A stretch of 64,000 nucleotides of DNA from Escherichia coli (GTDB lineage: Bacteria > Pseudomonadota > Gammaproteobacteria > Enterobacterales > Enterobacteriaceae): the NCBI RefSeq assembly GCF_003018115.1, contig NZ_CP027457.1, one strand, 5' to 3'. Numbering within the stretch: the first letter of the stretch is position 1; every line of letters starts with the position of its first letter. Positions 4,118 through 35,832 of this stretch are shown here, one piece after another. The position numbers were made by a program, and so were the translations under genes. The notes beneath the pieces are model-generated. The model made no database searches. It saw only the letters and a program-made list of their open reading frames with translations, and was not told where the DNA came from.

Positions 4118-4256
4118 GGACTTTCCTGTGGAACAGCGTTTAAGCCTTTATCTGCCTATTGTACTCCTGAATCGTCCGGGACGCCTTGATCCCGGACGCA
4201 ACAATTTAAGACTTTTCACAATAAAATGTCTGCAAAATTGTCCAAAAGTGGCAATG

Positions 4257-7100: not shown

Positions 7101-7135
7101 ATGCCCGGTTGCTTTTCACAACCGGGCATTTTTTT
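7101..7135 (+). terminator. rho-independent terminator of exbBD
   Basis: hairpin atgcccggttg-cttttca-caaccgggcat followed by ttttttt; directly abuts yghA stop on the opposite strand. Confidence 0.6.
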
Positions 7136-8018
7136 AACCTAAATGCTCGCCGCCGCACACACCGTGCACTTCTGCGGTGACGTAGCTCGACTCCTGACTT
7201 GCCAGATAAACATATACAGGGGCCAGTTCCGCCGGTTGCCCCGCACGTTTCATCGGCGTTTGCTGACCAAACTGCGGGATCTTATCCTGCGTTTGTCCGC
7301 CGGAAATTTGCAGTGCTGTCCAGATCGGGCCTGGCGCGACAATATTTACCCGAATACCTTTCTCCGCGACCTGTTTTGCCAGGCCTCGGCTGTAGTTCAG
7401 AATCGCCGCCTTCGTAGCCGCATAGTCCAGTAAATGCGGACTTGGCTGGTATGCCTGGATTGACGAAGTGGTGATAATACTTGCACCTTTCGGTAGCATG
7501 GGGATCGCTTCCTGGGTTAGCCAGAACAGCGCGAAAACGTTAATGGCAAAGGTCTTTTGAAACTGTTCGCTGGTGAGGTCTGCAATATCCGGAATGGCAA
7601 CCTGTTTCCCGGCGACCAGCGCCATAATATCCAGCCCGCCTAAGGCCTTATGCGCTTCGTGAACTAGCGAACGGGCAAATTTCTCATCGCTTAAATCGCC
7701 TGGCAGCAGAACGGCTTTGCGTCCGCATTCTTCAATGATCTTTTTCACATCCTGAGCGTCTTCTTCTTCCACGGGAAGATAACTGATCGCCACGTCAGCC
7801 CCTTCACGCGCGTAAGCGATGGCGGCAGCGCGACCGATTCCGGAATCGCCCCCTGTCACCAGGGCTTTACGATCTTTCAGGCGACCGCTACCAACATAGG
7901 TTTTCTCGCCGCAATCCGGTACCGGTGTCATCTTCGCCTGGATGCCTGGCGTCGGTTGTTTCTGTTTGGGATATTCACCAGTGTAATACTGCGTGGTTGG
8001 GTCTTTTAAATGAGACAT
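7134..8018 (-). CDS. yghA: NADP-dependent short-chain dehydrogenase/reductase
   Basis: 294-aa ORF with SDR glycine-rich motif (VTGGDSGIG); recognised as YghA. Confidence 0.9.
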
Positions 8019-22858: not shown

Positions 22859-23551
22859 CTAGTGATAACCACGCGCGGTCATAAAATCCGTAATCGCTTT
22901 TTCTGCATCAACCAACACCTGTTCCAGTGGCTGATTGGCATCGATATCAACCAGTTGTGCACCACCAAAGGTTAACTGTGGCGTTATGGCAATCTTCCTC
23001 GCCAGCGATTCCCGTTTATGGTCGGGTTTACGCGCGCAGGCCACGTCTAGATCGACATTGAGTTTGATGACCAGATCAGGCTTATGGCTCGCCATCCAGT
23101 GAAACGCTTTACGTTCCTGGCTTGCCAGCCATGAGACAAAACGACCACCTTCAACGTTAGGTGGGAACACCGTACCATCGTAAGCGCCAGGAATTTGGTC
23201 CTGAGGATAACGGTCGGTTAGAACAATTAACCCGCGACGACGACAGGCAAGCATATGACGAAAGCGCAGTAAGCGACGGGCGACAAACGCTGTAATTACC
23301 AGCGCCGGAACTGGTCCTGGCAATTTTTTTGCTGTTTTCACCTGATTTCGTTCAATTGTTTTATGTAAGGATTTTCCCATCAACGGTAATTTTGTCACTG
23401 CACGACCGACATTTCCGGCTTGTTTTCCTAAATGAACTCTTTCGGCAGCACCATATTTTTCGACAACGGTAATGAGATGTTCACACACCGTTGACTTGCC
23501 AGAACCATCGCTACCAATAACGGCAATTAATGGAGGTGTTATTGACTGCAT
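22859..23551 (-). CDS. yghT: P-loop NTPase/kinase-like protein (YghR/S/T paralog family)
   Basis: 230 aa; Walker [10 protein letters not shown]; DRYPQ motif; paralogous to the two downstream ORFs. Confidence 0.85.
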
Positions 23552-23724: not shown

Positions 23725-24438
23725 GTGAATCAACGTAATATGTCAATAATTAATTCCACGCCAGTGCGTGTTATTGCCATTGTAGGATGTGATGGTTCAG
23801 GTAAATCGACCCTCACGGCAAGCCTGGTAAATGAACTGGCAGCAAGAATGCCAACAGAACGCATTTATCTCGGGCAATCGTCCGGGCGAATTGGCGAATG
23901 GATTTCACAGCTCCCTGTTATTGGCGCACCTTTTGGGCGTTATCTGCGAAGTAAAGCGGCACATGTGCACGAAAAGCCCTCAACACCGCCTGGCAATATT
24001 ACTGCGCTGGTTATCTATCTGCTTTTCTGCTGGCGGGCGTACAAGTTTCGCAAAATGTTGTGTAGAAGCCAGCAAGGCCATCTGCTCATCACCGACCGCT
24101 ACCCGCAGGTTGAAGTGCCGGGTTTTCGCTTTGATGGCCCGCAATTGGCAAAAACCACGGGCGGTAACGGTTGGATAAAAATGTTAAGGCAGCGCGAGTT
24201 GAAGCTGTACCAATGGATGGCGTCTTATTTACCCGTATTGTTGATTCGTCTTGGCATTGATGAACAAACCGCGTTTGCGCGTAAACCTGACCACCAACTG
24301 GCAGCGTTACAGGAAAAAATCGCCGTTACGCCGCAATTGACATTCAATGGCGCAAAGATCCTTGAACTGGATGGTCGGCAACCAGCCGATGAAATTCTGC
24401 AAGCGTCACTACGCGCAATTCACGCCGCGCTTTCCTGA
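23725..24438 (+). CDS. yghS: P-loop NTPase/kinase-like protein (YghR/S/T paralog family)
   Basis: 237 aa from GTG start (alternative ATG at 23740); Walker A GCDGSGKST; DRYPQ; ARKPDH motif shared with paralogs. Confidence 0.85.
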   Translation: MNQRNMSIINSTPVRVIAIVGCDGSGKSTLTASLVNELAARMPTERIYLGQSSGRIGEWISQLPVIGAPFGRYLRSKAAHVHEKPSTPPGNITALVIYLLFCWRAYKFRKMLCRSQQGHLLITDRYPQVEVPGFRFDGPQLAKTTGGNGWIKMLRQRELKLYQWMASYLPVLLIRLGIDEQTAFARKPDHQLAALQEKIAVTPQLTFNGAKILELDGRQPADEILQASLRAIHAALS

Positions 24439-24469: not shown

Positions 24470-25228
24470 ATGGATGCACTACAAACACAAACTGTTATTA
24501 GTACAACCGCGCCACAGCCCAACTACATTCCGGGGCTGATTGCGGTGGTCGGGTGTGATGGCACCGGTAAATCCACACTGACCACCGACCTAGTGAAATC
24601 GCTGCAACAACACTGGCAAACCGAGCGGCGCTATCTGGGGCTGCTCTCCGGCGAAGACGGCGACAAAATCAAACGATTGCCGTTGGTTGGCGTCTGGCTG
24701 GAACGGCGACTGGCGGCCAAATCCTCGAAAACCCAAAGCATGAAAACCAAATCTCCGGCGCTATGGGCGGCGGTGATTATGTACTGCTTCTCGCTGCGAA
24801 GAATGGCGAATCTACGCAAGGTTCAGCGACTGGCGCAAAGTGGCGTTCTGGTGGTCAGCGATCGCTTCCCGCAGGCTGAAATTTCGGGCTTTTATTATGA
24901 CGGACCGGGGATTGGCGTCGAACGTGCGACCGGGAAAATCAGCATGTTTCTGGCGCAGCGCGAACGGCGTTTATACCAACAAATGGCGCAATATCGCCCG
25001 GAATTAATTATTCGCCTGGGCATTGATATTGAGACTGCCATCTCCCGCAAGCCTGACCATGACTATGCCGAGCTGCAGGACAAAATCGGCGTCATGTCGA
25101 CGATTGGCTATAACGGCACAAAAATTCTTGAGATTGATTCCAGAGCGCCCTACAGCGAAGTGCTGGAACAGGCACAGAAGGCGGTTTCTCTGGTTGCCAT
25201 CGCTTCTGACCGCCGAAGTTTAACTTAA
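24470..25228 (+). CDS. yghR: P-loop NTPase/kinase-like protein (YghR/S/T paralog family)
   Basis: 252 aa; Walker A GCDGTGKST; DRFPQ; SRKPDH. Confidence 0.85.
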   Translation: MDALQTQTVISTTAPQPNYIPGLIAVVGCDGTGKSTLTTDLVKSLQQHWQTERRYLGLLSGEDGDKIKRLPLVGVWLERRLAAKSSKTQSMKTKSPALWAAVIMYCFSLRRMANLRKVQRLAQSGVLVVSDRFPQAEISGFYYDGPGIGVERATGKISMFLAQRERRLYQQMAQYRPELIIRLGIDIETAISRKPDHDYAELQDKIGVMSTIGYNGTKILEIDSRAPYSEVLEQAQKAVSLVAIASDRRSLT

Positions 25229-25273: not shown

Positions 25274-26623
25274 TTGGCGGGTTTTAACATCAAACATTGG
25301 TTTGCAGATGGCGCGTTTCGCACCATTATTCGCAATAGCGCCTGGTTAGGCTCCAGTAATGTCGTGAGCGCCTTGCTGGGGCTGTTGGCGCTCTCGTGTG
25401 CCGGTAAAGGGATGACGCCCGCCATGTTTGGCGTACTGGTGATTGTGCAATCGTACGCCAAGTCGATCAGCGATTTTATTAAGTTTCAGACATGGCAGCT
25501 GGTGGTTCAGTACGGAACGCCAGCCTTGACCAACAATAATCCGCAGCAATTTCGCAATGTCGTCTCATTTTCCTTCTCGCTGGATATCGTCAGCGGCGCG
25601 GTGGCGATTGTCGGCGGCATTGCCTTACTGCCATTCCTTTCCCATTCATTAGGTCTGGATGACCAAAGCTTTTGGCTGGCGGCGCTGTATTGCACGCTCA
25701 TTCCTTCAATGGCTTCCTCCACGCCGACCGGCATTCTGCGTGCGGTAGATCGCTTTGATTTGATTGCTGTACAGCAGGCGACGAAACCTTTTCTGCGCGC
25801 AGCGGGGAGCGTCGCAGCCTGGTATTTTGACTTTGGTTTTGCGGGTTTTGTTATTGCCTGGTACGTGTCGAATCTGGTTGGCGGCACCATGTACTGGTGG
25901 TTTGCCGCGCGCGAATTACGCCGCAGAAATATCCATAACGCCTTCAAATTGAATCTGTTTGAGTCTGCCCGACACATTAAAGGCGCGTGGAGTTTTGTCT
26001 GGTCAACCAACATTGCCCACTCCATCTGGTCGGCGCGTAACTCGTGCAGCACAGTGTTGGTGGGGATCGTGTTAGGACCCGCTGCCGCCGGGTTATTTAA
26101 AATCGCCATGACATTCTTCGACGCCGCCGGAACGCCAGCGGGTTTGCTGGGTAAAAGTTTTTACCCAGAGGTGATGCGTTTAGATCCGCGCACCACCAGA
26201 CCGTGGTTGTTAGGCGTGAAGTCCGGTTTACTGGCGGGCGGAATCGGTATTCTGGTGGCGCTCGCGGTGTTGATCGTCGGCAAGCCGCTCATTTCGCTGG
26301 TATTTGGCGTTAAGTATCTCGAAGCGTATGACCTGATTCAGGTGATGCTGGGCGCAATTGTGATCTCGATGCTGGGCTTCCCGCAGGAGTCATTGCTATT
26401 GATGGCGGGAAAACAGCGCGCTTTTCTCGTGGCGCAAACCATCGCCTCAATCGGCTACATCGTATTGCTGTTCATGTTCTGTCATCTGTTTGGCGTGCTG
26501 GGGGCTGCATTTGCTTACTTCGTTGGGCAATGTCTGGATGTGGTGCTCTCGTTAATTCCAACCTTAAAGGCATTTTTTCAGCGCCATTCCTTGCTTTATA
26601 ACGCAGCCGGAGAGAAATCCTGA
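25274..26623 (+). CDS. yghQ: MOP/Wzx-like polytopic membrane flippase-family protein
   Basis: 449-codon hydrophobic ORF from TTG at 25274 (true start may be the internal Met at about 25412); recognised as YghQ-like; stop overlaps the next ORF start (ATGA). Confidence 0.8.
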   Translation: MAGFNIKHWFADGAFRTIIRNSAWLGSSNVVSALLGLLALSCAGKGMTPAMFGVLVIVQSYAKSISDFIKFQTWQLVVQYGTPALTNNNPQQFRNVVSFSFSLDIVSGAVAIVGGIALLPFLSHSLGLDDQSFWLAALYCTLIPSMASSTPTGILRAVDRFDLIAVQQATKPFLRAAGSVAAWYFDFGFAGFVIAWYVSNLVGGTMYWWFAARELRRRNIHNAFKLNLFESARHIKGAWSFVWSTNIAHSIWSARNSCSTVLVGIVLGPAAAGLFKIAMTFFDAAGTPAGLLGKSFYPEVMRLDPRTTRPWLLGVKSGLLAGGIGILVALAVLIVGKPLISLVFGVKYLEAYDLIQVMLGAIVISMLGFPQESLLLMAGKQRAFLVAQTIASIGYIVLLFMFCHLFGVLGAAFAYFVGQCLDVVLSLIPTLKAFFQRHSLLYNAAGEKS

Positions 26624-27447
26624 TGATGAGAAAATATTTCCCGCTTGAGGCGAGCGAGCGTCTATTTGTTGCGATTGAAGAAGATGATGTCGTTGATGCA
26701 CAGGTTAGTTTGCCGCCGACTATTGCACTAAGTTGTACCACCGAAATCATTCATGATAATTACGCGTTATGCCTGCAATTCTGGCTCAATGGCGTTAATC
26801 GTCAGGAATTACTGCGTTTAGTTCGCAAACAAGCCAAAGGCGATGAGCTGACTGCTGATGAGCGCAAACAATTTAAATACATGCGAGCGCGCTACAAGCA
26901 CCTGCGTTTTGCGCAACGGCTGTATTTAAAGAAGCATCAGGCCGGATTTTTATTCGGCAAAACGACCGTTTTTCTGGGACGTTTTCAGGACGGATTTCGT
27001 AACGGTAAGAAAAATATTGTGTCGTATTACGGCAACCTGTTACGAATTTATTTAAGCTCTCCGGTCTGGTCGTTGGTGAACTATTCATTACGCCATAGCC
27101 AGTTAGAAAGCGTAAGCGGTTTTATTGCCTATCGGCAAAAGCAAATGCATACCCTGAAAGAGATTATTGCCAAACCGCGACTAACCGGCAGGGAATTTCA
27201 TGATGTGCGAAAAATCATCAGCCAGCAGGTTTCTTATTACGACACCTTAAGATCGCTTGATCCTGAAAATAAAGAGGCGTTACAGATTTCCCGTTTCCTC
27301 GCCGCCATTAATGGCCTGATGGGGGATAAACACGACGACATGGTAGCGGATGATATGGAAAACCGCCAGTCGTATGATGCACCGGTGGCGCTGGATAGCG
27401 ATATTCGCCAGCGCTTAGAGCTGCTGATTTCGCGTTTTCCGCTATAA
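26623..27447 (+). CDS. hypothetical protein, basic, no recognisable motif
   Basis: 274-aa ORF translationally coupled to yghQ (ATGA overlap); no signal peptide or TM segment apparent. Confidence 0.6.
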   Translation: MMRKYFPLEASERLFVAIEEDDVVDAQVSLPPTIALSCTTEIIHDNYALCLQFWLNGVNRQELLRLVRKQAKGDELTADERKQFKYMRARYKHLRFAQRLYLKKHQAGFLFGKTTVFLGRFQDGFRNGKKNIVSYYGNLLRIYLSSPVWSLVNYSLRHSQLESVSGFIAYRQKQMHTLKEIIAKPRLTGREFHDVRKIISQQVSYYDTLRSLDPENKEALQISRFLAAINGLMGDKHDDMVADDMENRQSYDAPVALDSDIRQRLELLISRFPL

Positions 27448-27455
27448 CCGGAGCA

Positions 27456-28019
27456 ATGATGTCATCTCGTTTGATTATTGCGCTGATTATCATGCTCTTA
27501 GCCCCGGGTGTGCAGGCACACAATTTCGTCACTGGCAAAACGGTTACCCCTGTTTATATTCAGGAAGGCGGCGAGCTGCTTCTGAATAGCGACGACGAAA
27601 TTCACTACCAAAAGTGGAACAGCACACAATTGGCGGGAAAAGTCCGCATTATCCAGTATATCGCCGGGCGTAAGTCGGCGAAGAAAAAGAACTCACTGTT
27701 AATTAAAGCGGTTGAAGCGGCAAACTTTCCGCAGGATCGTTTTCAGCCCACCACCATTGTGAACACCGATGATGCCATCTTTGGTACTGGCTATTTTGTT
27801 GTTGGCAAAATCGAAAAAAATAAACGCCGCTATCCGTGGGCGCAATTCGTTATCGACGGCAATGGACAGGGACGCGTTGCCTGGCGCTTGCCGGAGCAGA
27901 GTTCAACCATTCTGGTGCTGGATAAAGCCGGGCAAATTCAGTGGGCAAAGGACGGCAGCCTGACGCCGGAAGAGGTAGATCATGTCATTGCGCTGGCGCA
28001 GAAACTGATCAATGAATAA
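27456..28019 (+). CDS. secreted/periplasmic protein, YtfJ-family-like
   Basis: 187 aa; N-terminal signal peptide (MMSSRLIIALIIMLLAPGVQA/HN); resembles E. coli YtfJ as recalled (TTIVNTDDAI...YPW..F..D.NG, QWAKDG.LTPEEV). Confidence 0.6.
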   Translation: MMSSRLIIALIIMLLAPGVQAHNFVTGKTVTPVYIQEGGELLLNSDDEIHYQKWNSTQLAGKVRIIQYIAGRKSAKKKNSLLIKAVEAANFPQDRFQPTTIVNTDDAIFGTGYFVVGKIEKNKRRYPWAQFVIDGNGQGRVAWRLPEQSSTILVLDKAGQIQWAKDGSLTPEEVDHVIALAQKLINE

Positions 28020-28049
28020 AAAATTCAAAGGATTGAGGGCGTTAGTGAG

Positions 28050-29120
28050 ATGAAGCTGGTTGAACACTACATCATGCGTGGTACGCGCCGTCTGGTGCTG
28101 ATTATCGTCGGTTTTCTGATCTTTATTTTCGCCAGCTACTCCGCACAGCGTTATCTGACCGAAGCGGCAAATGGGACATTAGCTCTTGATGTTGTGCTGG
28201 ATATCGTTTTCTACAAAGTGCTGATTGCACTGGAGATGTTGTTACCTGTTGGTCTGTATGTGTCAGTTGGCGTGACGCTAGGGCAGATGTATACCGACTC
28301 GGAAATTACCGCTATCTCTGCGGCGGGGGGCAGTCCGGGACGCTTGTACAAAGCCGTTCTTTATCTGGCGATACCGCTAAGTATTTTTGTCACCCTTCTG
28401 TCGATGTATGGTCGTCCGTGGGCTTATGCGCAGATTTATCAACTGGAGCAGCAGTCGCAGTCGGAGCTGGATGTTCGCCAGTTGCGGGCAAAGAAATTTA
28501 ACACTAACGATAACGGACGAATGATCCTTTCGCAGACGGTTGATCAGGATAATAATCGCCTGACTGACGCGCTGATTTATACTTCTACTGCCAATCGAAC
28601 CCGCATTTTCCGCGCCCGTTCGGTTGATGTGGTTGACCCATCACCCGAGAAACCGACCGTTATGTTGCACAACGGCACTGCCTATCTTCTCGATCATCAG
28701 GGTCGTGACGACAACGAACAGATCTACCGTAATCTGCAATTACATCTGAATCCGCTGGATCAAAGCCCTAACGTCAAACGCAAAGCAAAATCGGTCACGG
28801 AGCTGGCGCGCTCCGCCTTTCCTGCCGATCATGCCGAACTGCAATGGCGACAAAGCCGTGGCCTGACAGCATTGTTGATGGCGCTGCTGGCCATTTCATT
28901 AAGTCGGGTAAAACCGCGGCAGGGGCGATTTTCAACGTTATTGCCACTGACGTTGCTGTTTATTGCCATTTTTTATGGCGGCGACGTCTGCCGTACGCTG
29001 GTGGCTAACGGCGCGATTCCTCTCATTCCTGGTTTGTGGTTAGTGCCCGGACTCATGCTAATGGGCCTGCTGATGCTGGTTGCACGCGACTTCACTTTGC
29101 TGCAGAAATTTTCCCGATGA
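28050..29120 (+). CDS. LptF-like permease (YjgP/YjgQ family)
   Basis: 356 aa; N-terminal TM bundle then soluble domain then C-terminal TMs; LGQMYTDSEITAISAAG matches the LptF signature region as recalled (LGKLYTESEITVMHACG). Confidence 0.75.
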   Translation: MKLVEHYIMRGTRRLVLIIVGFLIFIFASYSAQRYLTEAANGTLALDVVLDIVFYKVLIALEMLLPVGLYVSVGVTLGQMYTDSEITAISAAGGSPGRLYKAVLYLAIPLSIFVTLLSMYGRPWAYAQIYQLEQQSQSELDVRQLRAKKFNTNDNGRMILSQTVDQDNNRLTDALIYTSTANRTRIFRARSVDVVDPSPEKPTVMLHNGTAYLLDHQGRDDNEQIYRNLQLHLNPLDQSPNVKRKAKSVTELARSAFPADHAELQWRQSRGLTALLMALLAISLSRVKPRQGRFSTLLPLTLLFIAIFYGGDVCRTLVANGAIPLIPGLWLVPGLMLMGLLMLVARDFTLLQKFSR

Positions 29121-30196
29121 ATGTTTTCAGTCGCTATTTAATCCGTCATCTCTTTCTCGGTTTTGCCGCCGCCGCAGGGCTATTGCTGCCGCTTTTTACC
29201 ACCTTCAACCTGATTAACGAACTGGATGATGTCAGCCCGGGCGGTTATCGCTGGACTCAGGCGGTGCTGGTGGTGCTAATGACCTTACCGCGCACACTGG
29301 TCGAACTTTCGCCGTTTATCGCCTTATTGGGAGGGATTGTCGGCCTGGGGCAGTTATCGAAAAACAGTGAGCTTACCGCCATTCGCAGCATGGGGTTTTC
29401 TATCTTCCGTATTGCACTGGTGGCGCTGGTTGCCGGGATATTGTGGACTGTTTCGTTAGGCGCGATAGATGAGTGGGTAGCGTCGCCGTTGCAGCAACAG
29501 GCGCTGCAAATCAAATCGACCGCCACTGCGTTGGGGGAGGACGATGATATTACCGGCAATATGCTTTGGGCCAGGCGCGGTAATGAATTTGTAACGGTGA
29601 AATCGCTGAACGAGCAGGGCCAGCCGGTGGGCGTGGAGATATTTCATTATCGCGACGATCTCTCGCTCGAATCCTACATTTATGCACGCAGTGCCACCAT
29701 TGAAGACGACAAAACGTGGATCCTGCATGGTGTGAATCATAAAAAATGGCTGAATGGCAAAGAAACGCTGGAAACATTAGATAATCTTGCCTGGCAATCG
29801 GCCTTCACCAGTATGGATCTTGAAGAGTTATCAATGCCGGGCAATACTTTTTCTGTCCGTCAGCTTAATCATTACATCCATTATTTGCAGGAAACCGGGC
29901 AACCCAGCAGCGAATACCGCCTTGCACTGTGGGAAAAACTGGGGCAACCCATCCTGACCCTGGCGATGATTTTGCTGGCTGTGCCGTTTACCTTTAGTGC
30001 CCCGCGCTCGCCAGGGATGGGTAGCCGTCTCGCTGTAGGTGTCATCGTTGGCTTACTCACCTGGATCAGCTATCAAATCATGGTCAATCTGGGATTGCTA
30101 TTTGCGTTGAGCGCACCTGTTACCGCGCTCGGTTTACCGATAGCGTTTGTGCTGGTGGCGTTGAGCCTGGTGTATTGGTATGACAGACAACATTAA
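29117..30196 (+). CDS. LptG-like permease (YjgP/YjgQ family)
   Basis: 359 aa from ATG at 29117 (MNVFSRYLIRH...), overlapping upstream stop by 4 nt; NSELTAIRSMGFS resembles LptG RSELVVMQASGF. Confidence 0.75.
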   Translation: MNVFSRYLIRHLFLGFAAAAGLLLPLFTTFNLINELDDVSPGGYRWTQAVLVVLMTLPRTLVELSPFIALLGGIVGLGQLSKNSELTAIRSMGFSIFRIALVALVAGILWTVSLGAIDEWVASPLQQQALQIKSTATALGEDDDITGNMLWARRGNEFVTVKSLNEQGQPVGVEIFHYRDDLSLESYIYARSATIEDDKTWILHGVNHKKWLNGKETLETLDNLAWQSAFTSMDLEELSMPGNTFSVRQLNHYIHYLQETGQPSSEYRLALWEKLGQPILTLAMILLAVPFTFSAPRSPGMGSRLAVGVIVGLLTWISYQIMVNLGLLFALSAPVTALGLPIAFVLVALSLVYWYDRQH

Positions 30197-30230
30197 ACCC
30201 GCCGTGGCGCAACACCACAGCGGGCTCACA

Positions 30231-31403
30231 TTACTGCTTCAGAGTAGCGAACGCTTGAATGATGGCATCAATTTGCTCACGACTGTGGGCAGCGTTTACG
30301 CTACAGCGCAGCAGCGTGATGCCTGCAGGCGCGGCAGGTGGCAGGATAAGATTCACATAAACGCCCAGCGAAATAAGCTCGCGCCAGATGCGTAAACCTT
30401 CCTCTTTCGAACCGATTATTACCGGCACTACCGGGCTAATATGTGAACTTAACTCATAACCCAGTTTTTGCAGACCGTCATACAGATGGTTGGCGTTATC
30501 CATCAGCTTTTGCCGCAGCTCTGGTTGTGTGGCAATGGTTCTTAACGACGAGCGCACGGTCGCAATGCAGGACGGAGAAGGAGAGGCGGTAAAAATATAC
30601 GGGCGGCTGCCGTAGCGCAGCACTTCCATCGCTTCCGAACCGACAGCAAAACCGCCAATCGAGGCCAGACTTTTACTGAAGGTACCAACGATAATATCCA
30701 CATCATCTTCAACGCCAACGGCTTCAGCCAGTCCGCGCCCCGTTGCGCCTAACACGCCAAACGAATGCGCTTCATCGACAATCAAATAACCACCGAGACG
30801 ACGTTTGATATCAACAATTTCCGCCAGCGGCGCAACGTCACCGAGCATGCTGTAGATGCCCTCAACGATGATAATCGCCTCTTTCGCCCGTTCACCGAGG
30901 CGAACCATGCGCCGTTCCAGATCTTTAGCATCGTTATGGCGGAAACGAATAATTTCCGCGCCACCGAGAGAACAGGCGTCATAAATACTGGCGTGGCTGT
31001 CGGCATCCAGTAACACCACGGCGTTATGGTCGGCAAGTGCGCTGATGACGCCTAAATTAGCGGTATAACCGGTTGAAAAAACGATAGCGGTAGGGCGATT
31101 GAAAAACTCGGCAATCTCTTTCTCTAACGCCAGGTGCGGCGCATAACTGCCGTTTGCCATACGAGAACCGGTGGTGCCGGTGCCTTGGGCCGCTAACGCT
31201 GTCTGACCTTCGGCGATGGCATCATGATTAAAGGTTAAACCGAGGTAATTATTGGTCCCGGCCAGAATCACTTTTTTATTGCCGATCCGGCCTTCGGTGG
31301 CGGAATACACTTCATCAATACAGGTGCCAAACGGTGTTAACCCATTGTCACTAAATTGCAGTCGCTCGCCAGCAAGGCGCGCATATTTATCATATAGCCC
31401 CAT
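30231..31403 (-). CDS. alpha-oxoamine synthase family PLP enzyme, serine palmitoyltransferase-like
   Basis: 390 aa; class-II aminotransferase fold with PLP-lysine motif GTFSKSLASIGGF; encoded immediately downstream of a dedicated ACP. Confidence 0.8.
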   Translation of the reverse strand: MGLYDKYARLAGERLQFSDNGLTPFGTCIDEVYSATEGRIGNKKVILAGTNNYLGLTFNHDAIAEGQTALAAQGTGTTGSRMANGSYAPHLALEKEIAEFFNRPTAIVFSTGYTANLGVISALADHNAVVLLDADSHASIYDACSLGGAEIIRFRHNDAKDLERRMVRLGERAKEAIIIVEGIYSMLGDVAPLAEIVDIKRRLGGYLIVDEAHSFGVLGATGRGLAEAVGVEDDVDIIVGTFSKSLASIGGFAVGSEAMEVLRYGSRPYIFTASPSPSCIATVRSSLRTIATQPELRQKLMDNANHLYDGLQKLGYELSSHISPVVPVIIGSKEEGLRIWRELISLGVYVNLILPPAAPAGITLLRCSVNAAHSREQIDAIIQAFATLKQ

Positions 31404-31651
31404 TATTTATTCTCCAGCCATGGAAGTAGAGTTTCCATTAATTGCGCAGGGGTTTTGACATCCAGCAGAATATTAATAGGAATGGAAATATCGAATCTGT
31501 CTTCCAGCATCATTAAGAGATCCATCACTTTGATCGACTCCAGGCCAAGATCGTTGACGAGATCGCTGTCGGGCTTAATTTCCACACCGTTTTCGACCAA
31601 ATCCTGTAAACAGGAAAGGATGTAATCCATTACTATTTCACGATTTACCAT
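31403..31651 (-). CDS. acyl carrier protein
   Basis: 82 aa, acidic; phosphopantetheine-site motif DLGLESI; shares a boundary nucleotide with the downstream synthase gene. Confidence 0.75.
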   Translation of the reverse strand: MVNREIVMDYILSCLQDLVENGVEIKPDSDLVNDLGLESIKVMDLLMMLEDRFDISIPINILLDVKTPAQLMETLLPWLENK

Positions 31652-31682
31652 AGAAACGTTAACACACCTTTAAACAAGACAA

Positions 31683-32597
31683 TCAAAATAGCCCGTTGCG
31701 TAATGCGTGTTCCAGGCTAATCCCGGGAAACCAATTAATATCTTCAGAAATACGGTTATTACTTGCCGACCAGTCGGCGTGGGTTAATTCACGAATTTTC
31801 GAGCGGGTCAGCATAGGTTCTTTACCTGCCAGGCGGCTCAACGCGGTACTGATATCCGCAAGGCAGGTGAGTACCGGCAGAGGAATGCCAACCATTCGCA
31901 CGGAACCACAACGGGCGTCGGCGGCAAGTTGCTGTACGCGTTGCCAGTCATAGCCGCCAGCGACGCCATCGCATAATTCATAGGTTTGCGTCTGTACAGT
32001 TTCGGCGCTTAACCACTGACCCACTGCTTGCGCGAAATCGGTGACGTGCAGGAAAGAGAGCTGTGTATCTGGCGCACCAAGTCGTGGCAGCAGGCCGCGC
32101 AGCATCCAGTCAAACAGCGGTTTTAACTCTTTATCGCCGGGGCCATACACGGCTGTCGGGCGAAAAACGCCCAGCGTAATTTTGTCAGCCATTGCAGTCA
32201 GCCGTTGTTCGGCGACGTATTTGGAATTTGCGTACCAGGAGAGTTCGGGATGGCGCGCCGCCAGCGAAGAGATAAACAGAAAACGTTGGCAAAAACCGCT
32301 CTCTTTTGCCGCCTGCATCAGGCGCAGACTGCCGTCAACGTTACAGCGGGTGAAAATCTCTTCTTTGTGCCCGCGCACTTGTCCGGCGCAATGAACCACC
32401 GCGCTGGCTCCGGCAACCAGTTCGCTAAGCGAATGTGTATCTTCCAGCGAACCGCGCACCCAGGTGAGATTATCATTGACGTGAGCGCGGGCAGTACGCG
32501 TCAATGCGCGAACGTGAAAGCCGCGGGCGAGCAGGTTATTGATAATATATTTACCGATAAACCCGGTAGCGCCCGTCACCGCGACAGTTTGATTCAT
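31683..32597 (-). CDS. NAD(P)-dependent epimerase/dehydratase-family SDR (candidate keto-reductase)
   Basis: 304 aa; N-terminal Rossmann motif VTGATGFIGK; start overlaps stop of upstream acyl-ACP synthetase (ATGA). Confidence 0.8.
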   Translation of the reverse strand: MNQTVAVTGATGFIGKYIINNLLARGFHVRALTRTARAHVNDNLTWVRGSLEDTHSLSELVAGASAVVHCAGQVRGHKEEIFTRCNVDGSLRLMQAAKESGFCQRFLFISSLAARHPELSWYANSKYVAEQRLTAMADKITLGVFRPTAVYGPGDKELKPLFDWMLRGLLPRLGAPDTQLSFLHVTDFAQAVGQWLSAETVQTQTYELCDGVAGGYDWQRVQQLAADARCGSVRMVGIPLPVLTCLADISTALSRLAGKEPMLTRSKIRELTHADWSASNNRISEDINWFPGISLEHALRNGLF

Positions 32598-34327
32598 GCC
32601 AGGGATTCCTGCACATGAAGGCTTGCAGCATAAGCCTTCTGATAACGTTTTTTCGCTTCCGCACGGGCAGGCTTGCCGGAGGACGTTCGGGGAATGCTGT
32701 GGGGCGGCAACAGATCGATAGCCGCGGTCACGCCAAATTCGCTTTGGATCCGTGCTGCCAGCGCGTGGATAAGCTGCCCGCGACGTTCTTCATCGCTGAT
32801 CCGACACTGGATCTGCAAAATGATTTTTTCCTGGGCGGTAACAAAAGCAATCGCATCGCCAGAATGAATTTCCGGTTCCTGTTCCGCTATATATTCAATA
32901 TCCTGCGGCCAGATATTACGGCCACGAATAATAATCAGATCTTTAATGCGTCCGGTGACATACAGATAACCGTCCAGCAGATAACCGAGGTCGCCAGTGT
33001 CTAACCAGCCCGTCGCGGCAATCTCGTCTTGCGAAGCCTGGTCGCCAAAGTAACCGCTCATCAGACTGGGACCGGAGATGCAAATATGGCCTACCACACG
33101 TTCCGCGACCGGCATACCTGCTTCATTGCGGATTTCAATACCATGTTCCGGCAACGCTTTGCCGCAGTTGACGAAAGTCGATACGGCGCGTGTCTCTGCA
33201 CCCGGCGCGACGGCTTTACCCTGATATTCGAGGATGTCGCGATCCACTTCGTTAACCACAACCCCGGAGGCTTCATCAGAGAAGCTGACAGCCAGCGCAT
33301 TTTCTGCCAGTCCGTAGCACGGCATGAAAGTTTTATTGTCAAAGTTAACCTGACGGAAACATTCAGCGAATTGATGGAGTTGTTCTGCGGAGATGGGTTC
33401 TGCACCAATACCAGCGACGCGCCAGCAGGAAAGATCCAGTTCAGCGAGATCTTTTTCATTCACGCGGCGCTGGCACAATTCATAGCCAAACGGCGGCGCA
33501 ACGGAAACGGTGCCGCGATTTTTACTGATCAATTTAAGCCATTGCAGAGGACGCATGGCAAAATCCTGAGTGCGCAAATAATCTACTGAAAGTTGCGTGG
33601 CGACGGGGGTCAGGAGAAAGCCGACCAGTCCCATATCATGGTAGAAAGGCAGCCAGGAGACGCAGCGGTCGCCAGGGCGTAATTTAATGCCATCGTGGCT
33701 TATGGCGCGTAGATTAGCCATCACTTCGCGGTGAGTGATAATGACGCCACGGGGAAAACGGGTGCTGCCGGAGGTGTACTGGAGGTAGGCGATATCGTTC
33801 GGAACTGGACGCTGGAGCGCAACATCGGCTTCCGGTAATGCCTTAAACCAGGCGTGGCTTAAAACATGTAATTCGGGGTTGTTGTTATGCGTCGCGGCAT
33901 TGACCAGCGGTAACCACTCATCACCAGTGATAATGGCTGCGGGCTGGCAACTTGCCAGTAAACCCTGCAGTTTGGCGCTCCAGGAATCCCGCTGACCGAC
34001 GCCCATTGGAATCGCCAATGGTACGGCAACTAATCCAGCATACTGACAGGCAAAAAATGCCTCGACAAACCCGCTACTGGTTTCGGCAATCAGCGCCACG
34101 CGATCGCCTTTTTTCAGGTTTAGCGATAACAACCGCTTCGCACCAGCTTCGGCACGCGCTTTTAACGTCTGATATTCCAGTTGATCTTCAAGTTGGCAAC
34201 GTCTGTCATAAAAATTCATTCCAGCGCTACTCAGAGCGGCGTAGTCCAAAGCATCAACCAGCGTTGGAAAATCGGCATAGCGCATAGGTAGGGAATGCGT
34301 AAAGATTTTATTAGACATATACACCAC
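32594..34327 (-). CDS. fatty acyl-AMP ligase / acyl-ACP synthetase (adenylate-forming enzyme)
   Basis: 577 aa; AMP-binding core motif YTSGSTRFPRGV and downstream GYG/TGD adenylation motifs; first gene of a 4-gene minus-strand operon. Confidence 0.8.
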   Translation of the reverse strand: MVYMSNKIFTHSLPMRYADFPTLVDALDYAALSSAGMNFYDRRCQLEDQLEYQTLKARAEAGAKRLLSLNLKKGDRVALIAETSSGFVEAFFACQYAGLVAVPLAIPMGVGQRDSWSAKLQGLLASCQPAAIITGDEWLPLVNAATHNNNPELHVLSHAWFKALPEADVALQRPVPNDIAYLQYTSGSTRFPRGVIITHREVMANLRAISHDGIKLRPGDRCVSWLPFYHDMGLVGFLLTPVATQLSVDYLRTQDFAMRPLQWLKLISKNRGTVSVAPPFGYELCQRRVNEKDLAELDLSCWRVAGIGAEPISAEQLHQFAECFRQVNFDNKTFMPCYGLAENALAVSFSDEASGVVVNEVDRDILEYQGKAVAPGAETRAVSTFVNCGKALPEHGIEIRNEAGMPVAERVVGHICISGPSLMSGYFGDQASQDEIAATGWLDTGDLGYLLDGYLYVTGRIKDLIIIRGRNIWPQDIEYIAEQEPEIHSGDAIAFVTAQEKIILQIQCRISDEERRGQLIHALAARIQSEFGVTAAIDLLPPHSIPRTSSGKPARAEAKKRYQKAYAASLHVQESLA

Positions 34328-34689
34328 GAAAAAATTGGATATCCAAAATAAAATGACAATAATGCGGTGGATTATATAGGCATAAAAGATAAATGAGATA
34401 GTATTTTCATCAGTGTGAAAATGAACATTGATTTAAATAATGAGTTTAAGTTTTTTTGTTTTTATTGTGAATGATATTTAATTTATGAATATATTAAGAA
34501 GAAGCCTTGTCCGGTCGCCTTAAATCGACAAAAGGCATTGTGGCGCTTCTGTGTAGTCGCTGACCTTATCGTAATCATTAATAAATACTATTTATTCGTC
34601 GTTTGTATTCATTGGGTTGATTATTAAGGTGCCGTTCGTTGCTGTTGCAACCTGTTTGTCACCGTTAATTATTTGTTACCCACAGAACT
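34328..34689. promoter_or_regulatory. AT-rich divergent control region (lipid operon / yghO)
   Basis: 362-bp intergenic region of markedly low GC between divergently oriented genes. Confidence 0.45.
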
Positions 34690-35832
34690 ATGGAATGCGA
34701 TCTGCTGATGATTAAAATTGAAAAAGTAATAAATAAAAACGACTTAAAGGCATTTATCGCTTTTCCGTCATCACTTTATCCCGACGATCCAAACTGGATA
34801 CCCCCTTTATTCATTGAACGCAACGAGCATTTGTCTGCGAAAAATCCGGGGACGGACCATATCATCTGGCAGGCGTGGGTGGCAAAAAAAGCGGGGCAGA
34901 TAGTTGGGCGTATTACCGCGCAAATAGATACCTTGCACCGCGAGCGTTACGGCAAAGATACCGGTCATTTCGGCATGATTGACGCCATTGATGATCCGCA
35001 GGTTTTTGCCGCGTTGTTTGGCGCAGCGGAAGCGTGGTTGAAGTCCCAAGGTGCAAGTAAGATCAGCGGTCCTTTCAGCCTGAATATCAATCAGGAAAGC
35101 GGATTACTGATTGAAGGTTTTGACACACCACCCTGTGCGATGATGCCACACGGCAAACCGTGGTATGCCGCGCATATTGAACAACTGGGTTATCACAAAG
35201 GCATTGATTTACTGGCGTGGTGGATGCAGCGAACCGATCTCACTTTCTCTCCGGCGCTAAAAAAACTGATGGATCAGGTGCGCAAAAAGGTGACCATTCG
35301 CTGCATCAATCGCCAGCGGTTTGCCGAAGAGATGCAGATCCTGCGTGAGATTTTCAACTCTGGCTGGCAACACAACTGGGGATTTGTGCCGTTTACCGAA
35401 CATGAATTCGCGACCATGGGCGATCAACTTAAATATCTGGTGCCGGACGATATGATCTACATCGCTGAGATTGATTCTGCACCCTGCGCGTTTATTGTCG
35501 GCTTGCCGAACATCAACGAGGCGATTGCCGATCTGAACGGATCGCTCTTTCCCTTCGGCTGGGCAAAATTGCTGTGGCGTTTGAAAGTCAGCGGTGTGCG
35601 AACTGCGCGAGTACCGCTGATGGGCGTGCGCGACGAGTATCAGTTCAGCCGCATCGGCCCGGTGATTGCGCTGTTATTGATTGAAGCCTTACGCGATCCG
35701 TTTGCCCGCCGGAAGATCGATGCGCTGGAGATGTCATGGATCCTCGAAACCAATACAGGCATGAATAACATGCTGGAACGCATTGGGGCGGAGCCGTACA
35801 AGCGTTACCGATTGTATGAAAAGCAGATTTAA
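34690..35832 (+). CDS. yghO: GNAT-superfamily-like acyltransferase (full-length YghO)
   Basis: 380-codon ORF (start possibly at internal Met, 34708); position corresponds to yghO next to glcC; acyltransferase assignment is tentative. Confidence 0.65.
   Translation: MECDLLMIKIEKVINKNDLKAFIAFPSSLYPDDPNWIPPLFIERNEHLSAKNPGTDHIIWQAWVAKKAGQIVGRITAQIDTLHRERYGKDTGHFGMIDAIDDPQVFAALFGAAEAWLKSQGASKISGPFSLNINQESGLLIEGFDTPPCAMMPHGKPWYAAHIEQLGYHKGIDLLAWWMQRTDLTFSPALKKLMDQVRKKVTIRCINRQRFAEEMQILREIFNSGWQHNWGFVPFTEHEFATMGDQLKYLVPDDMIYIAEIDSAPCAFIVGLPNINEAIADLNGSLFPFGWAKLLWRLKVSGVRTARVPLMGVRDEYQFSRIGPVIALLLIEALRDPFARRKIDALEMSWILETNTGMNNMLERIGAEPYKRYRLYEKQI

What the first reader, a model, noticed from the sequence alone, without database searches (positions are those of the whole stretch)
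28050..30196. Second LptF/LptG-like permease pair with no ABC ATPase in the locus
Two adjacent ORFs overlapping by 4 nt have the N-terminal TM bundle, central soluble domain and C-terminal TM architecture of LptF and LptG, with signature stretches (LGQMYTDSEITAISAAG; NSELTAIRSMGFS) close to the housekeeping LptF/LptG as I recall them. No gene with an ABC signature (LSGGQ) is visible anywhere in the window. The pair sits between a periplasmic protein gene and the lipid-biosynthesis operon, which suggests a dedicated extractor for a non-LPS lipid that either borrows LptB or works without an ATPase.
Basis: partly seen in the sequence, partly recalled or inferred. Interest (0 to 1): 0.8.

Follow-up and report, generated by a model that had tools for sequence, protein, structure and literature searches.

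The report
Sphingolipid-locus LptF/LptG paralogue pair

Summary
ORFs 28050-29120 and 29117-30196 overlap by ATGA. Both are full-length PF03739 proteins and pass the NCBIfam LptF and LptG equivalog cut-offs. They are only 26-29% identical to E. coli's own LptF/LptG, which sit next to pepA in the nearest genome and in 5425 of 5426 complete E. coli genomes. The 64-kb window holds no ABC ATPase, LptC or LptA homologue.

The pair ends a seven-gene operon (yghS-yghR-yghQ-CHAD-like-ytfJ-like-lptF2-lptG2). That operon converges on aasR-cerR-acpR-spt and lies beside yghO, which together form the E. coli ceramide-synthesis cluster. The nearest relatives of LptG2 are in Serratia, Hafnia, Pantoea, Pseudomonas, Methyloversatilis and metagenomes. 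Eight of the nine further relatives whose neighbourhoods I read are in sphingolipid-type loci, even where the gene order or head-group genes differ.

All four residues that couple LptFG to LptB and its nucleotide are conserved (LptF E84 and R292; LptG E88 and R301). The best reading is a sphingolipid extractor that borrows LptB. This matches Uchendu, Isom and Klein (bioRxiv 2026), whose Figure 2B includes the E. coli UTI89 locus. Function in E. coli is untested.

Novelty: already known. Interest is low to moderate.

The parts
28050..29120 (+). lptF2: LptF-type permease paralogue (356 aa)
   Evidence: PF03739 E 4.7e-54. TIGR04407 319 bits against a cut-off of 230. E 1e-25 to E. coli LptF 6mhu_F and 4e-32 to Vibrio LptF 6mjp_F. 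29% identity to the strain's own LptF. dN/dS 0.064 against strain SF-468.
28281..28328 (+). LptF2 coupling helix GQMYTDSEITAISAAG (aa 78-93), with E85 equivalent to LptF E84
   Evidence: 9 of 16 residues identical to LptF 77-92, against 26% overall. Y80, E84 and A90 equivalents are identical. The role of these residues is from PMC5082905.
28911..28928 (+). LptF2 cytoplasmic loop 2, KPRQGR; its first Arg is equivalent to LptF R292, which contacts the nucleotide bound to LptB
   Evidence: The Arg is invariant in all ten F2 sequences. The role of R292 is from PMC6744409.
29117..30196 (+). lptG2: LptG-type permease paralogue (359 aa), translationally coupled to lptF2 through ATGA
   Evidence: PF03739 E 1.1e-69. 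TIGR04408 308 bits against a cut-off of 240. E 2.6e-41 to E. coli LptG 6mhu_G. 28% identity to the strain's own LptG. dN/dS 0.082. Start codon.
29348..29395 (+). LptG2 coupling helix GQLSKNSELTAIRSMG (aa 78-93), with E85 equivalent to LptG E88
   Evidence: L83, E88, L89 and G96 equivalents are identical (PMC5082905).
29999..30016 (+). LptG2 cytoplasmic loop 2, APRSPG; its Arg is equivalent to LptG R301
   Evidence: The Arg is invariant in all ten G2 sequences (PMC6744409).
30194..30228 (.). 16-bp-stem GC-rich hairpin filling the 34-nt gap between the convergent lptG2 and spt stop codons; a likely bidirectional terminator
   Evidence: Top terminator-like hit; sequence. Function is inferred, and the overall hit counts in that scan were not above the shuffled controls.
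27456..28019 (+). ytfJ-like gene: secreted, cysteine-free thioredoxin-fold protein, immediately upstream in the same operon
26623..27447 (+). Unannotated 274-aa cytoplasmic all-alpha protein with a CHAD-like fold
25274..26623 (+). yghQ, full length (449 aa): MOP/Wzx-type flippase-like membrane protein and candidate inner-membrane flippase for the lipid
   Evidence: Weak NF007773 MOP flippase match. PF01943/PF13440 on orthologues. The flippase role is inferred; Caulobacter has a candidate flippase, CC_1166, in its locus (PMC11324152).
23725..25228 (+). yghS (23725-24438) and yghR (24470-25228): Walker-A, dTMP-kinase-like paralogues, the first genes of the operon
   Evidence: Walker A motifs. 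Sub-threshold TIGR00041 matches. Conserved order. A head-group role is inferred.
22859..23551 (-). yghT: third Walker-A, dTMP-kinase-like paralogue, transcribed divergently
30231..31403 (-). spt, serine palmitoyltransferase
   Evidence: RefSeq annotation. E. coli B SPT was shown to use acyl-AcpR (PMC9386255).
31403..31651 (-). acpR, specialised acyl carrier protein
   Evidence: PMC9386255.
31683..32597 (-). cerR/epi, NAD-dependent epimerase-family reductase
   Evidence: PMC9386255.
32594..34327 (-). aasR, acyl-AcpR synthetase. It is intact in the window; the ORF as listed starts at a GTG, and the true start is probably the ATG about 4 codons downstream.
   Evidence: Open 577-codon frame. The 'internal stop' annotated in NZ_CP024269.1 is due to one of the 15 differences from the window.
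34690..35832 (+). yghO, homologue of the Caulobacter ceramide-synthesis N-acyltransferase (aca/bCerS)
   Evidence: PMC9386255 names yghO (ECD_02850) as the aca homologue.

Best explanation
lptF2-lptG2 encode the two transmembrane halves of a second LptB2FG-type lipid extractor. It serves the sphingolipid made by the surrounding strain-variable E. coli cluster.

The proposed sequence of events is as follows. AasR loads a fatty acid on AcpR. Spt condenses it with serine. YghO and CerR complete ceramide. The YghR/S/T P-loop proteins, perhaps with the CHAD-like protein, build a head group. YghQ flips the lipid to the periplasmic leaflet. The LptF2-LptG2 heterodimer docks on a dimer of the single housekeeping LptB through its coupling helices, takes the lipid laterally into its cavity, and expels it on ATP binding into its beta-jellyroll domains. 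Onward passage to the outer membrane is through the housekeeping LptC/LptA/LptDE bridge or an unidentified acceptor.

Shown here: family membership, status as an extra copy, absence of an NBD, LptC or LptA gene in the locus, conserved linkage to spt, conservation of the LptB-coupling residues, and purifying selection.

Taken from the literature: the E. coli B Spt/AcpR/AasR biochemistry, and the Caulobacter LptF2G2-LptB interaction and sphingolipid-dependent essentiality.

Inferred: every transport step in E. coli, the identity of the lipid, and the roles of YghQ, YghR/S/T, the CHAD-like protein and the YtfJ-like protein.
For: Family and architecture.

Extra copy: housekeeping pepA-lptF-lptG and lptC-lptA-lptB are elsewhere in the nearest genome. 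Housekeeping lptFG is in 5425 of 5426 genomes, and the second pair is in 4086-4177 of 5426. K-12 lost the second pair through an IS5-bounded deletion and is viable.

Operon structure: seven same-strand genes with gaps of -4 to 45 nt.

Linkage: the yghT | yghS-yghR-yghQ-CHAD-ytfJ-lptF2-lptG2 block is kept in Serratia, Hafnia and Pantoea. The aasR-cerR-acpR-spt operon lies either downstream and convergent (E. coli, Hafnia) or upstream (Serratia, Pantoea). The closest relatives outside the Enterobacterales are Pseudomonas umsongensis (50%), a metagenome sequence (45%) and Methyloversatilis (44%). All three lie beside aasR-cerR-acpR-spt with quite different head-group genes. The 37% and 36% relatives are in CDP-OH_P_transf/DAGK_cat-type loci whose spt was not in the stretch read. 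In an NJ tree these form a 12-tip clade, and E. coli's own LptG ranks 130th of 139 by distance.

Coupling to an NBD: F2 E85 and G2 E85 (equivalent to E84 and E88) and the loop-2 arginines (equivalent to R292 and R301) are invariant in ten pairs. 7 of the 10 functionally important coupling-helix positions are identical. The F2 helix is 56% identical against 26% overall (PMC5082905, PMC6744409).

No LptB, LptC or LptA homologue in the window or nine related loci.

dN/dS is 0.06-0.08.

Literature.
Against: No experiment exists for the E. coli pair. No sphingolipid from E. coli is reported in the library I searched.

The Caulobacter pair on which the model rests is not detectably orthologous. Its OCR-rebuilt LptG2 and LptF2 score 45 and 24 bits against E. 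coli G2 and F2, but 53 and 37 bits against E. coli LptG and LptF. The analogy therefore rests on context and architecture.

The coupling residues are conserved throughout the LptFG family, so they show dependence on an NBD but not which NBD. I could not search the genome for a second LptB-like ATPase.

23% of complete E. coli genomes lack the pair, and at least one carrier has a nonsense mutation in aasR. The system is therefore dispensable and may be silent in the laboratory.

One 34% relative (P0132) is not in an obvious sphingolipid locus.
Confidence: 0.7

Rival explanations
1. An alternative or back-up LPS extractor. On this reading LptF2G2 handles LPS, or a modified lipid A variant, under particular conditions, as the RefSeq gene names imply, and its position next to spt is incidental.
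For: Both proteins exceed the NCBIfam 'equivalog' cut-offs for LptF and LptG, and RefSeq names them accordingly. Several LPS-contact positions are kept as basic or hydrophobic residues: F2 I25/F26/R33 equivalents, K317 to R, G2 K62 to R, R136 to K.
Against: Identity to the housekeeping pair is only 26-29%. Linkage to sphingolipid-type genes survives rearrangement and head-group gene replacement across beta- and gammaproteobacteria. The housekeeping pair is retained in 5425 of 5426 genomes irrespective of the second pair. K-12 lacks the second pair. In Caulobacter the paralogues become dispensable once sphingolipid synthesis is removed.
Confidence: 0.07
2. The pair works with a different energy source. 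Either LptF2G2 binds some other ABC ATPase encoded elsewhere in the genome, or it acts as an ATP-independent scramblase or holder.
For: No NBD gene lies within the window or within 10 kb in nine related loci. The Pseudomonas and Methyloversatilis loci carry an MsbA-like fused ABC exporter.
Against: The coupling-helix glutamates and the nucleotide-contacting loop-2 arginines are invariant in all ten pairs, which is hard to explain without an NBD partner. The MsbA-like proteins carry their own transmembrane domain, and the enterobacterial loci have none. Caulobacter LptF2 and LptG2 pull down LptB reciprocally.
Confidence: 0.08
3. A maintained but functionally cryptic module in E. coli. The genes are intact, yet the pathway is not expressed or yields no envelope lipid, and the pair has no transport role in practice. 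It would be a horizontally acquired island in slow decay.
For: It is absent from about 23% of complete genomes. K-12 lost it by an IS5 deletion. There is a nonsense mutation in aasR in NZ_CP024269.1. The searched literature reports no E. coli sphingolipid.
Against: dN/dS is 0.06-0.08 between divergent E. coli lineages. Orthologues at 65-75% identity are full length in many enterobacterial genera. All thirteen genes are intact in the window. E. coli B Spt/AcpR/AasR are active when expressed (PMC9386255).
Confidence: 0.1
4. A regulatory decoy. On this reading LptF2G2 mainly titrates LptB, and perhaps LptC, away from LptFG to modulate LPS flux, rather than moving a lipid of its own.
For: It would share one LptB pool with the essential LPS machine. 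The coupling elements are conserved.
Against: The full transmembrane cavity and periplasmic domain are conserved under purifying selection, which a decoy would not need. There is consistent co-inheritance with lipid-synthesis genes.
Confidence: 0.03

Closest known systems
E. coli LptB2FG(C) lipopolysaccharide extractor (structures 6MHU, 6MI7, 6S8H and others)
   Same: Same Pfam family over the full length, and the same split into an F-type and a G-type subunit. The genes are adjacent and translationally coupled. The layout is 3 TM + periplasmic domain + 3 TM. The coupling-helix Glu and loop-2 Arg are conserved.
   Different: Identity is only 26-29%. The pair is not next to pepA and is not universal in the species (75% against 99.98% of genomes). 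It sits in a sphingolipid locus, and the predicted substrate is a two-chain sphingolipid rather than hexa-acylated lipid A. The LptG K34/K40/K41 lysines are N/D/D here, but those lysines are not general to LptG either.
Caulobacter crescentus LptF2/LptG2 (CCNA_01214/CCNA_01213), sphingolipid-locus Lpt paralogues (Olea-Ozuna et al. 2024, PMC11324152; Uchendu, Isom and Klein 2026, bioRxiv 10.64898/2026.04.12.717747)
   Same: An extra LptF/LptG pair inside the spt cluster, with no lptB in the locus. The proposed role is export of the locus sphingolipid using the single housekeeping LptB. The preprint itself shows the E. coli UTI89 locus in Figure 2B and says that lptF2/lptG2 occur in many alpha- and gammaproteobacterial sphingolipid loci.
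   Different: There is no detectable specific sequence relationship: 45 and 24 bits against E. coli G2 and F2, versus 53 and 37 bits against E. coli LptG and LptF, using OCR-rebuilt sequences. E. coli has no LptC2; the preprint says LptC2 is confined to Caulobacter. The head-group genes differ completely: CpgABC with a DAGK-like kinase in Caulobacter, against YghR/S/T, a CHAD-like protein and a YtfJ-like protein here. The E. coli pair is experimentally untested.
Sphingomonas wittichii LptFG (the sole copy in an LPS-free sphingolipid producer)
   Same: LptFG-type genes adjacent to sphingolipid biosynthesis genes, presumed to export sphingolipid.
   Different: There it is the only LptFG pair in the genome. 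Here it is an accessory second pair alongside a working LPS system.
Beta/gammaproteobacterial spt-locus LptFG pairs (Pseudomonas umsongensis group, Methyloversatilis, metagenomic relatives)
   Same: These are the true closest relatives (37-50% identity, one NJ clade). They share the same F-G order with overlapping or abutting genes, and the three closest sit next to aasR-cerR-acpR-spt and a YghO-like gene.
   Different: Their loci use CDP-alcohol phosphatidyltransferase, nucleotidyltransferase, metallophosphoesterase and DAGK/Tam41-like genes, and an MsbA-like exporter. The enterobacterial loci use YghR/S/T, YghQ, the CHAD-like protein and the YtfJ-like protein instead.

Membership tests
LptF/LptG permease family (Pfam PF03739; NCBIfam TIGR04407 / TIGR04408) | Full-length profile match above the curated threshold, with F-type versus G-type discrimination | tested here: met
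   PF03739 E 4.7e-54 and 1.1e-69 over model positions 1-352 of 353. TIGR04407 scores 319 bits (cut-off 230) for ORF1, against 67 bits on the LptG model. TIGR04408 scores 308 bits (cut-off 240) for ORF2, against 87 bits on the LptF model.
LptF/LptG permease family (Pfam PF03739; NCBIfam TIGR04407 / TIGR04408) | Six transmembrane helices (3+3) flanking a periplasmic beta-jellyroll domain | tested here: met
   Hydropathy peaks at ~10-120 and ~275-355 with a polar ~150-residue centre. End-to-end alignment to solved LptF/LptG chains. I did not model the jellyroll fold itself; it is inferred from the alignment.
LptF/LptG permease family (Pfam PF03739; NCBIfam TIGR04407 / TIGR04408) | Coupling-helix glutamate (LptF E84, LptG E88) and loop-2 arginine (LptF R292, LptG R301) that link the permease to LptB | tested here: met
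   All four are conserved in the window pair and in nine further F2/G2 pairs. Their roles are from PMC5082905 and PMC6744409.
LptF/LptG permease family (Pfam PF03739; NCBIfam TIGR04407 / TIGR04408) | Function as the LPS exporter (what the 'equivalog' name asserts) | not testable with these tools
   Indirect evidence argues against it. A separate housekeeping pair is present in 5425 of 5426 genomes, K-12 lacks this pair, and linkage is to spt rather than to LPS genes.
Sphingolipid-locus LptF2/LptG2 transporters (Olea-Ozuna 2024; Uchendu et al. 2026) | A second LptF/LptG pair in addition to the housekeeping one | tested here: met
Sphingolipid-locus LptF2/LptG2 transporters (Olea-Ozuna 2024; Uchendu et al. 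2026) | Encoded within the spt / acpR / cerR / aasR / bCerS cluster, with that linkage conserved in relatives | tested here: met
   Window genes at 30231-35832. Spt or other sphingolipid-type genes are adjacent in 8 of 9 further loci.
Sphingolipid-locus LptF2/LptG2 transporters (Olea-Ozuna 2024; Uchendu et al. 2026) | No cognate lptB in the locus | tested here: met
   The single annotated lptB lies 213 kb away with lptC and lptA. I could not search the whole genome for a second LptB.
Sphingolipid-locus LptF2/LptG2 transporters (Olea-Ozuna 2024; Uchendu et al. 2026) | Specific sequence relationship (orthology) to CCNA_01213 / CCNA_01214 | tested here: not met
   The Caulobacter sequences were rebuilt from the OCR text of the preprint's Supplemental Figure 1, with a few residues missing. 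Cc LptG2 scores 45.3 bits against Ec LptG2 and 52.6 against Ec LptG. Cc LptF2 scores 23.9 against Ec LptF2 and 37.3 against Ec LptF. Common origin is neither shown nor excluded.
Sphingolipid-locus LptF2/LptG2 transporters (Olea-Ozuna 2024; Uchendu et al. 2026) | Physical complex of F2 and G2 with LptB | not testable with these tools
   Only single-chain structure prediction was available. It is shown for Caulobacter by reciprocal pull-downs.
Sphingolipid-locus LptF2/LptG2 transporters (Olea-Ozuna 2024; Uchendu et al. 2026) | Deletion tolerated only when (anionic) sphingolipid synthesis is abolished | not testable with these tools
   A genetic experiment, shown for Caulobacter.
Sphingolipid-locus LptF2/LptG2 transporters (Olea-Ozuna 2024; Uchendu et al. 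2026) | Accompanying LptC2 | tested here: not met
   No LptC or LptA homologue at tblastn E<=1 in the window or nine related loci. The two unassigned operon proteins have CHAD-like and thioredoxin-like folds, not a beta-jellyroll. The preprint says LptC2 is restricted to Caulobacter, so this feature is not defining.
Self-contained ABC transporter operon (TMD and NBD co-encoded) | A gene with Walker A, an ABC signature and Walker B next to the permease genes | tested here: not met

The most novel reading that the evidence does not exclude
On this reading, the enterobacterial module is an LptFG lineage recruited to sphingolipid export independently of the Caulobacter one. It exports a still-undetected, heavily phosphorylated sphingolipid, built by the three P-loop YghR/S/T proteins and the CHAD-like protein. 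It hands that lipid not to LptC/LptA but to the co-transcribed cysteine-free, thioredoxin-fold YtfJ-like periplasmic protein. That would be a new periplasmic leg for an Lpt-type extractor, present in three quarters of E. coli strains.
Probability: 0.1. Interest if true: 0.7.

Novelty: already known. Interest (0 to 1): 0.3.

Why it matters
The locus shows that about 75% of complete E. coli genomes, though not K-12, carry an intact, selectively maintained ceramide-synthesis cluster with its own Lpt-type extractor genes. If it is expressed, these strains would put a sphingolipid in their outer membrane through a machine that competes with LPS export for the single essential ATPase LptB. That bears on envelope permeability, on polymyxin-type drug targets, and on LptB-directed antibiotics.

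The general principle, that sphingolipid loci encode LptFG paralogues which share LptB, is already published for Caulobacter, with the E. coli locus illustrated. What remains open is narrower. Does E. coli make the lipid, and what is its head group? What receives it in the periplasm, given that there is no LptC2? Did the alpha- and beta/gammaproteobacterial pairs arise once or twice?

There is also a practical annotation point. RefSeq gives both pairs the same gene names, lptF and lptG.

Tried and rejected
(1) LPS-phosphate-binding residues as a substrate discriminator. LptG K34/K40/K41 are N/D/D in LptG2, which looked like a loss of lipid-A binding. The control showed the same positions are A/D/E, D and D in most of the 130 other LptG representatives, and A/N/D in the solved P. 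aeruginosa LptG. I dropped the argument.

(3) YghR/S/T as homologues of the Caulobacter ceramide kinase CpgB. CpgB is a DAGK/LCB5-type kinase, whereas YghR/S/T are dTMP-kinase-like P-loop proteins. They are unrelated.

(4) Orthology to the Caulobacter LptF2/G2. OCR-rebuilt sequences gave no specific affinity.

(5) The GTG start at 29036 for ORF2. I rejected it in favour of the ATG at 29117.

(6) The 'internal stop' in aasR. It is present only in NZ_CP024269.1, not in the window.

(7) Promoter and terminator consensus scans gave counts no higher than the shuffles. Only the 16-bp hairpin at 30194-30228 stands out.

(8) Literature searches for any experimental work on the E. coli pair or on an E. 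coli sphingolipid found none in the library.

Ten locus contexts already answered the linkage question.


Full report
**What the window is.** Bases 27400-31500 are 100% identical to E. coli strain F8111-1SC3 (NZ_CP024269.1). Over 28.1 kb the window differs from that record at 15 positions. The region lies between pitB and glcC. The gene order is yghT(-), yghS, yghR, yghQ, a 274-aa hypothetical gene, a YtfJ-family gene, 'lptF' and 'lptG' (+), then spt, an ACP gene, an epimerase-family gene and a fatty-acyl-AMP ligase gene (-), then yghO (+).

**Checking the observation.** All parts hold.
- The two ORFs are 28050-29120 and 29117-30196 and overlap by ATGA.
- Both are full-length PF03739 proteins.
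- ORF1 passes the NCBIfam LptF equivalog model (319 bits against 230). ORF2 passes the LptG model (308 bits against 240). Each scores much lower on the other model.
- phmmer against PDB sequences gives the same assignment. ORF1 hits LptF chains (E 1e-25 for E. coli 6mhu_F, 4e-32 for Vibrio). ORF2 hits LptG chains (E 2.6e-41 for E. coli 6mhu_G). Alignments are end to end.
- Hydropathy shows hydrophobic segments at both ends and a polar ~150-residue centre.
They are the coupling helices that sit in the LptB groove.
- A six-frame motif scan finds Walker A only in YghR/S/T and GspE, and no protein with both Walker A and an ABC signature.
- tblastn with E. coli LptB, LptC and LptA finds nothing in the window except a 12-residue P-loop match in gspE.

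**Is it a second copy?** Yes. The nearest genome has pepA-lptF-lptG at 3,368,331-3,370,513 and lptC-lptA-lptB at 2,145,382-2,147,215. The housekeeping lptFG DNA is found in 5425 of 5426 complete E. coli genomes. The window pair is found at >=80% coverage in 4086. The two pairs are old paralogues. LptF2 is 29% identical to LptF over 268 residues, and LptG2 is 28% identical to LptG over 350. K-12 MG1655 has an IS5 element between yghO and a truncated yghQ in place of the eight genes from the 274-aa gene to aasR. The pair is therefore dispensable.

**What the neighbourhood is.** The convergent operon and yghO are the E. coli ceramide-synthesis genes. These were characterised biochemically for E. 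coli B/BL21 as aasR, epi, acpR, spt and aca = yghO (PMC9386255). In the window all are intact. The aasR 'internal stop' belongs only to NZ_CP024269.1.

lptF2 and lptG2 are the last genes of a tightly packed seven-gene operon starting at yghS, with gaps of -4 to 45 nt. A 16-bp-stem hairpin fills the 34 nt between the convergent stop codons.

**Comparative evidence.**
- LptG2 orthologues at 65-75% identity occur in E. albertii, Shimwellia, Hafnia, Citrobacter, Pseudocitrobacter, Serratia, Pantoea, Erwinia, Sodalis and Klebsiella indica.
- In Serratia, Hafnia and Pantoea the block yghT | yghS-yghR-yghQ-27x-aa-ytfJ-lptF2-lptG2 is unchanged. The aasR-cerR-acpR-spt operon is downstream and convergent in Hafnia (as in E. 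coli) but upstream in Serratia and Pantoea. Linkage survived a rearrangement.
- A search of 1.84 billion cluster representatives shows a steep score drop after the enterobacterial group: 389 bits (Pseudomonas umsongensis group, 50%), 304 (a metagenome, 45%), 290 (Methyloversatilis, 44%), 210 (37%), then a continuum. E. coli's own LptG scores about 145 bits.
- The three closest relatives outside the Enterobacterales (the Pseudomonas, metagenome and Methyloversatilis pairs) sit next to aasR-cerR-acpR-spt and a YghO-sized gene. Their head-group genes are entirely different: nucleotidyltransferases, CDP-alcohol phosphatidyltransferase, metallophosphoesterase, and DAGK- or Tam41-like genes. The 37% and 36% relatives lie among the same kinds of head-group genes, but spt was not in the stretch read.
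- In an NJ tree of 140 LptG sequences, all relatives with sphingolipid-type contexts form one 12-tip clade with the window protein. E. coli LptG ranks 130th of 139 by distance.
- One 34% relative is not in such a locus.
- None of the nine related loci has an LptB, LptC or LptA homologue. Two have an MsbA-like fused exporter.

**Mechanistic residues.** The reference data come from two papers. Simpson et al. (PMC5082905) defined the LptF coupling helix (residues 77-92). They found the essential glutamates LptF E84 and LptG E88, and functional positions F80/84/90/91 and G83/84/88/89/95/96. Tang et al. [quoted passage not shown]

In the window pair and nine further F2/G2 pairs, both glutamates and both arginines are invariant. 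7 of the 10 functional helix positions are identical to E. coli LptFG. The F2 coupling helix is 9/16 identical, against 26% overall. These proteins therefore still depend on an NBD. With none in the locus and a single annotated lptB, sharing LptB is the economical reading.

dN/dS between the window and strain SF-468 is 0.064 for lptF2 and 0.082 for lptG2. The genes are maintained by selection.

**A control that removed an argument.** LptG K34/K40/K41, which bind the lipid A phosphates and core in E. coli/Shigella, are N/D/D in LptG2. However, the same columns are mostly A/D/E, D and D in the other representatives, and A/N/D in the solved P. aeruginosa LptG. This does not discriminate substrates. 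Other contact positions are kept: F2 I/F/R at 25/26/33, K317 to R, G2 K62 to R, R136 to K.

**Is there a private periplasmic leg?**
- Neither is a beta-jellyroll. E. coli therefore has no LptC2 or LptA2. This agrees with the preprint's remark that LptC2 is restricted to Caulobacter.

**Comparison with the literature.** Olea-Ozuna et al. 2024 (PMC11324152) named LptC2/F2/G2 and a putative flippase in the Caulobacter cluster. Uchendu, Isom and Klein (bioRxiv, April 2026) reported the following:
- lptF2, lptG2 and lptC2 can be deleted only when spt or cpgB is absent.
- F2 and G2 co-purify with each other.
- Both co-purify reciprocally with the sole LptB.

Their Figure 2B shows the E. coli UTI89 locus. 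Their Discussion says that lptF2/lptG2 occur in many alpha- and gammaproteobacterial sphingolipid loci.

I found no paper in the library that tests the E. coli pair or reports an E. coli sphingolipid.

**One difference worth recording.** I rebuilt the Caulobacter sequences from the OCR text of the preprint's Supplemental Figure 1. Caulobacter LptG2 and LptF2 score no better against the E. coli second pair (45 and 24 bits) than against the E. coli housekeeping pair (53 and 37 bits). They show no affinity for the beta/gamma clade. The E. coli pair works like the Caulobacter pair by context and architecture. A common origin of the two sphingolipid-associated lineages is not demonstrated.

**Verdict.** This is a real feature, correctly read by the first stage, and explained by a known kind of system that has already been pointed out for E. 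coli. Confidence that it is the sphingolipid extractor using LptB is about 0.7. The remainder is spread over four rivals: a cryptic module, another energy source, an LPS back-up, or an LptB decoy. Novelty: already known. Interest: 0.3.

Noticed in passing
[not shown]
   Followed up: partly
[not shown]
   Followed up: partly
window 22859-23551 (-), 23725-24438 (+), 24470-25228 (+): yghT, yghS and yghR are three paralogous Walker-A proteins that are only weakly dTMP-kinase-like (20-32 bits against NCBIfam cut-offs of 83 and 193). RefSeq nevertheless names two of them 'dTMP kinase'. They are unrelated to the DAGK-type ceramide kinase CpgB of Caulobacter. In this locus they are the only candidate head-group kinases.
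   Followed up: partly
L012 (NC_000913.3 3129043-3132408), compared with window 25274-35832: K-12 MG1655 has IS5 (insH9) between yghO and a 3'-truncated yghQ. The eight genes from the CHAD-like gene to aasR, including lptF2, lptG2 and spt, are missing. K-12 yghO is annotated as a 'putative DNA-binding transcriptional regulator', although it is the homologue of the ceramide N-acyltransferase.
   Followed up: yes
window ~33980 (aasR, 32594-34327, -), compared with L001 position 18581: The closest RefSeq genome (NZ_CP024269.1) annotates aasR as a pseudogene with an internal stop. The window differs at that base and has an open 577-codon frame. The pathway is therefore intact here but broken in a near-identical strain.
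   Followed up: yes
window 28050-30196 and L002 28332-30514: RefSeq/PGAP gives both the housekeeping pair and the sphingolipid-locus pair the same gene symbols and product names (lptF, lptG, 'LPS export ABC transporter permease'). This is because both exceed the equivalog cut-offs, and it is an annotation over-call that hides the paralogy.
   Followed up: yes
window 30194-30228: A 16-bp-stem, GC-rich hairpin occupies almost the whole 34-nt gap between the convergent lptG2 and spt stop codons. It is probably a bidirectional terminator.
   Followed up: no
proteins P0019 and P0330; the gsp cluster is at window ~50-62 kb: Database proteins named GspC and GspM carry 100%- and 84%-identical portions of LptG2 and of the CHAD-like protein; P0019 has PF11356 plus PF03739. 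This suggests deletion or fusion variants in some E. coli genomes between this locus and the type II secretion cluster ~20 kb downstream, or gene-calling artefacts.
   Followed up: no
L006, L007, L008, L009 (Pseudomonas umsongensis, Methyloversatilis, metagenomes): The sister loci pair LptF2G2 and a YghO-like gene with a different head-group tool kit: NTP_transf_3, CDP-OH_P_transf, Metallophos, and DAGK_cat or Tam41-like genes. L006-L008 also carry the aasR-cerR-acpR-spt operon. L006 and L007 also have an MsbA-like fused ABC exporter, which would fill the flippase role assigned to YghQ in Enterobacterales.
   Followed up: partly
window 7307 (- strand, ORF 7134-8018): The only ABC-signature-like pentapeptide in the window (ISGGQ) lies in a 294-aa ORF with no Walker A motif. 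It is a chance match, not an ABC ATPase.
   Followed up: partly
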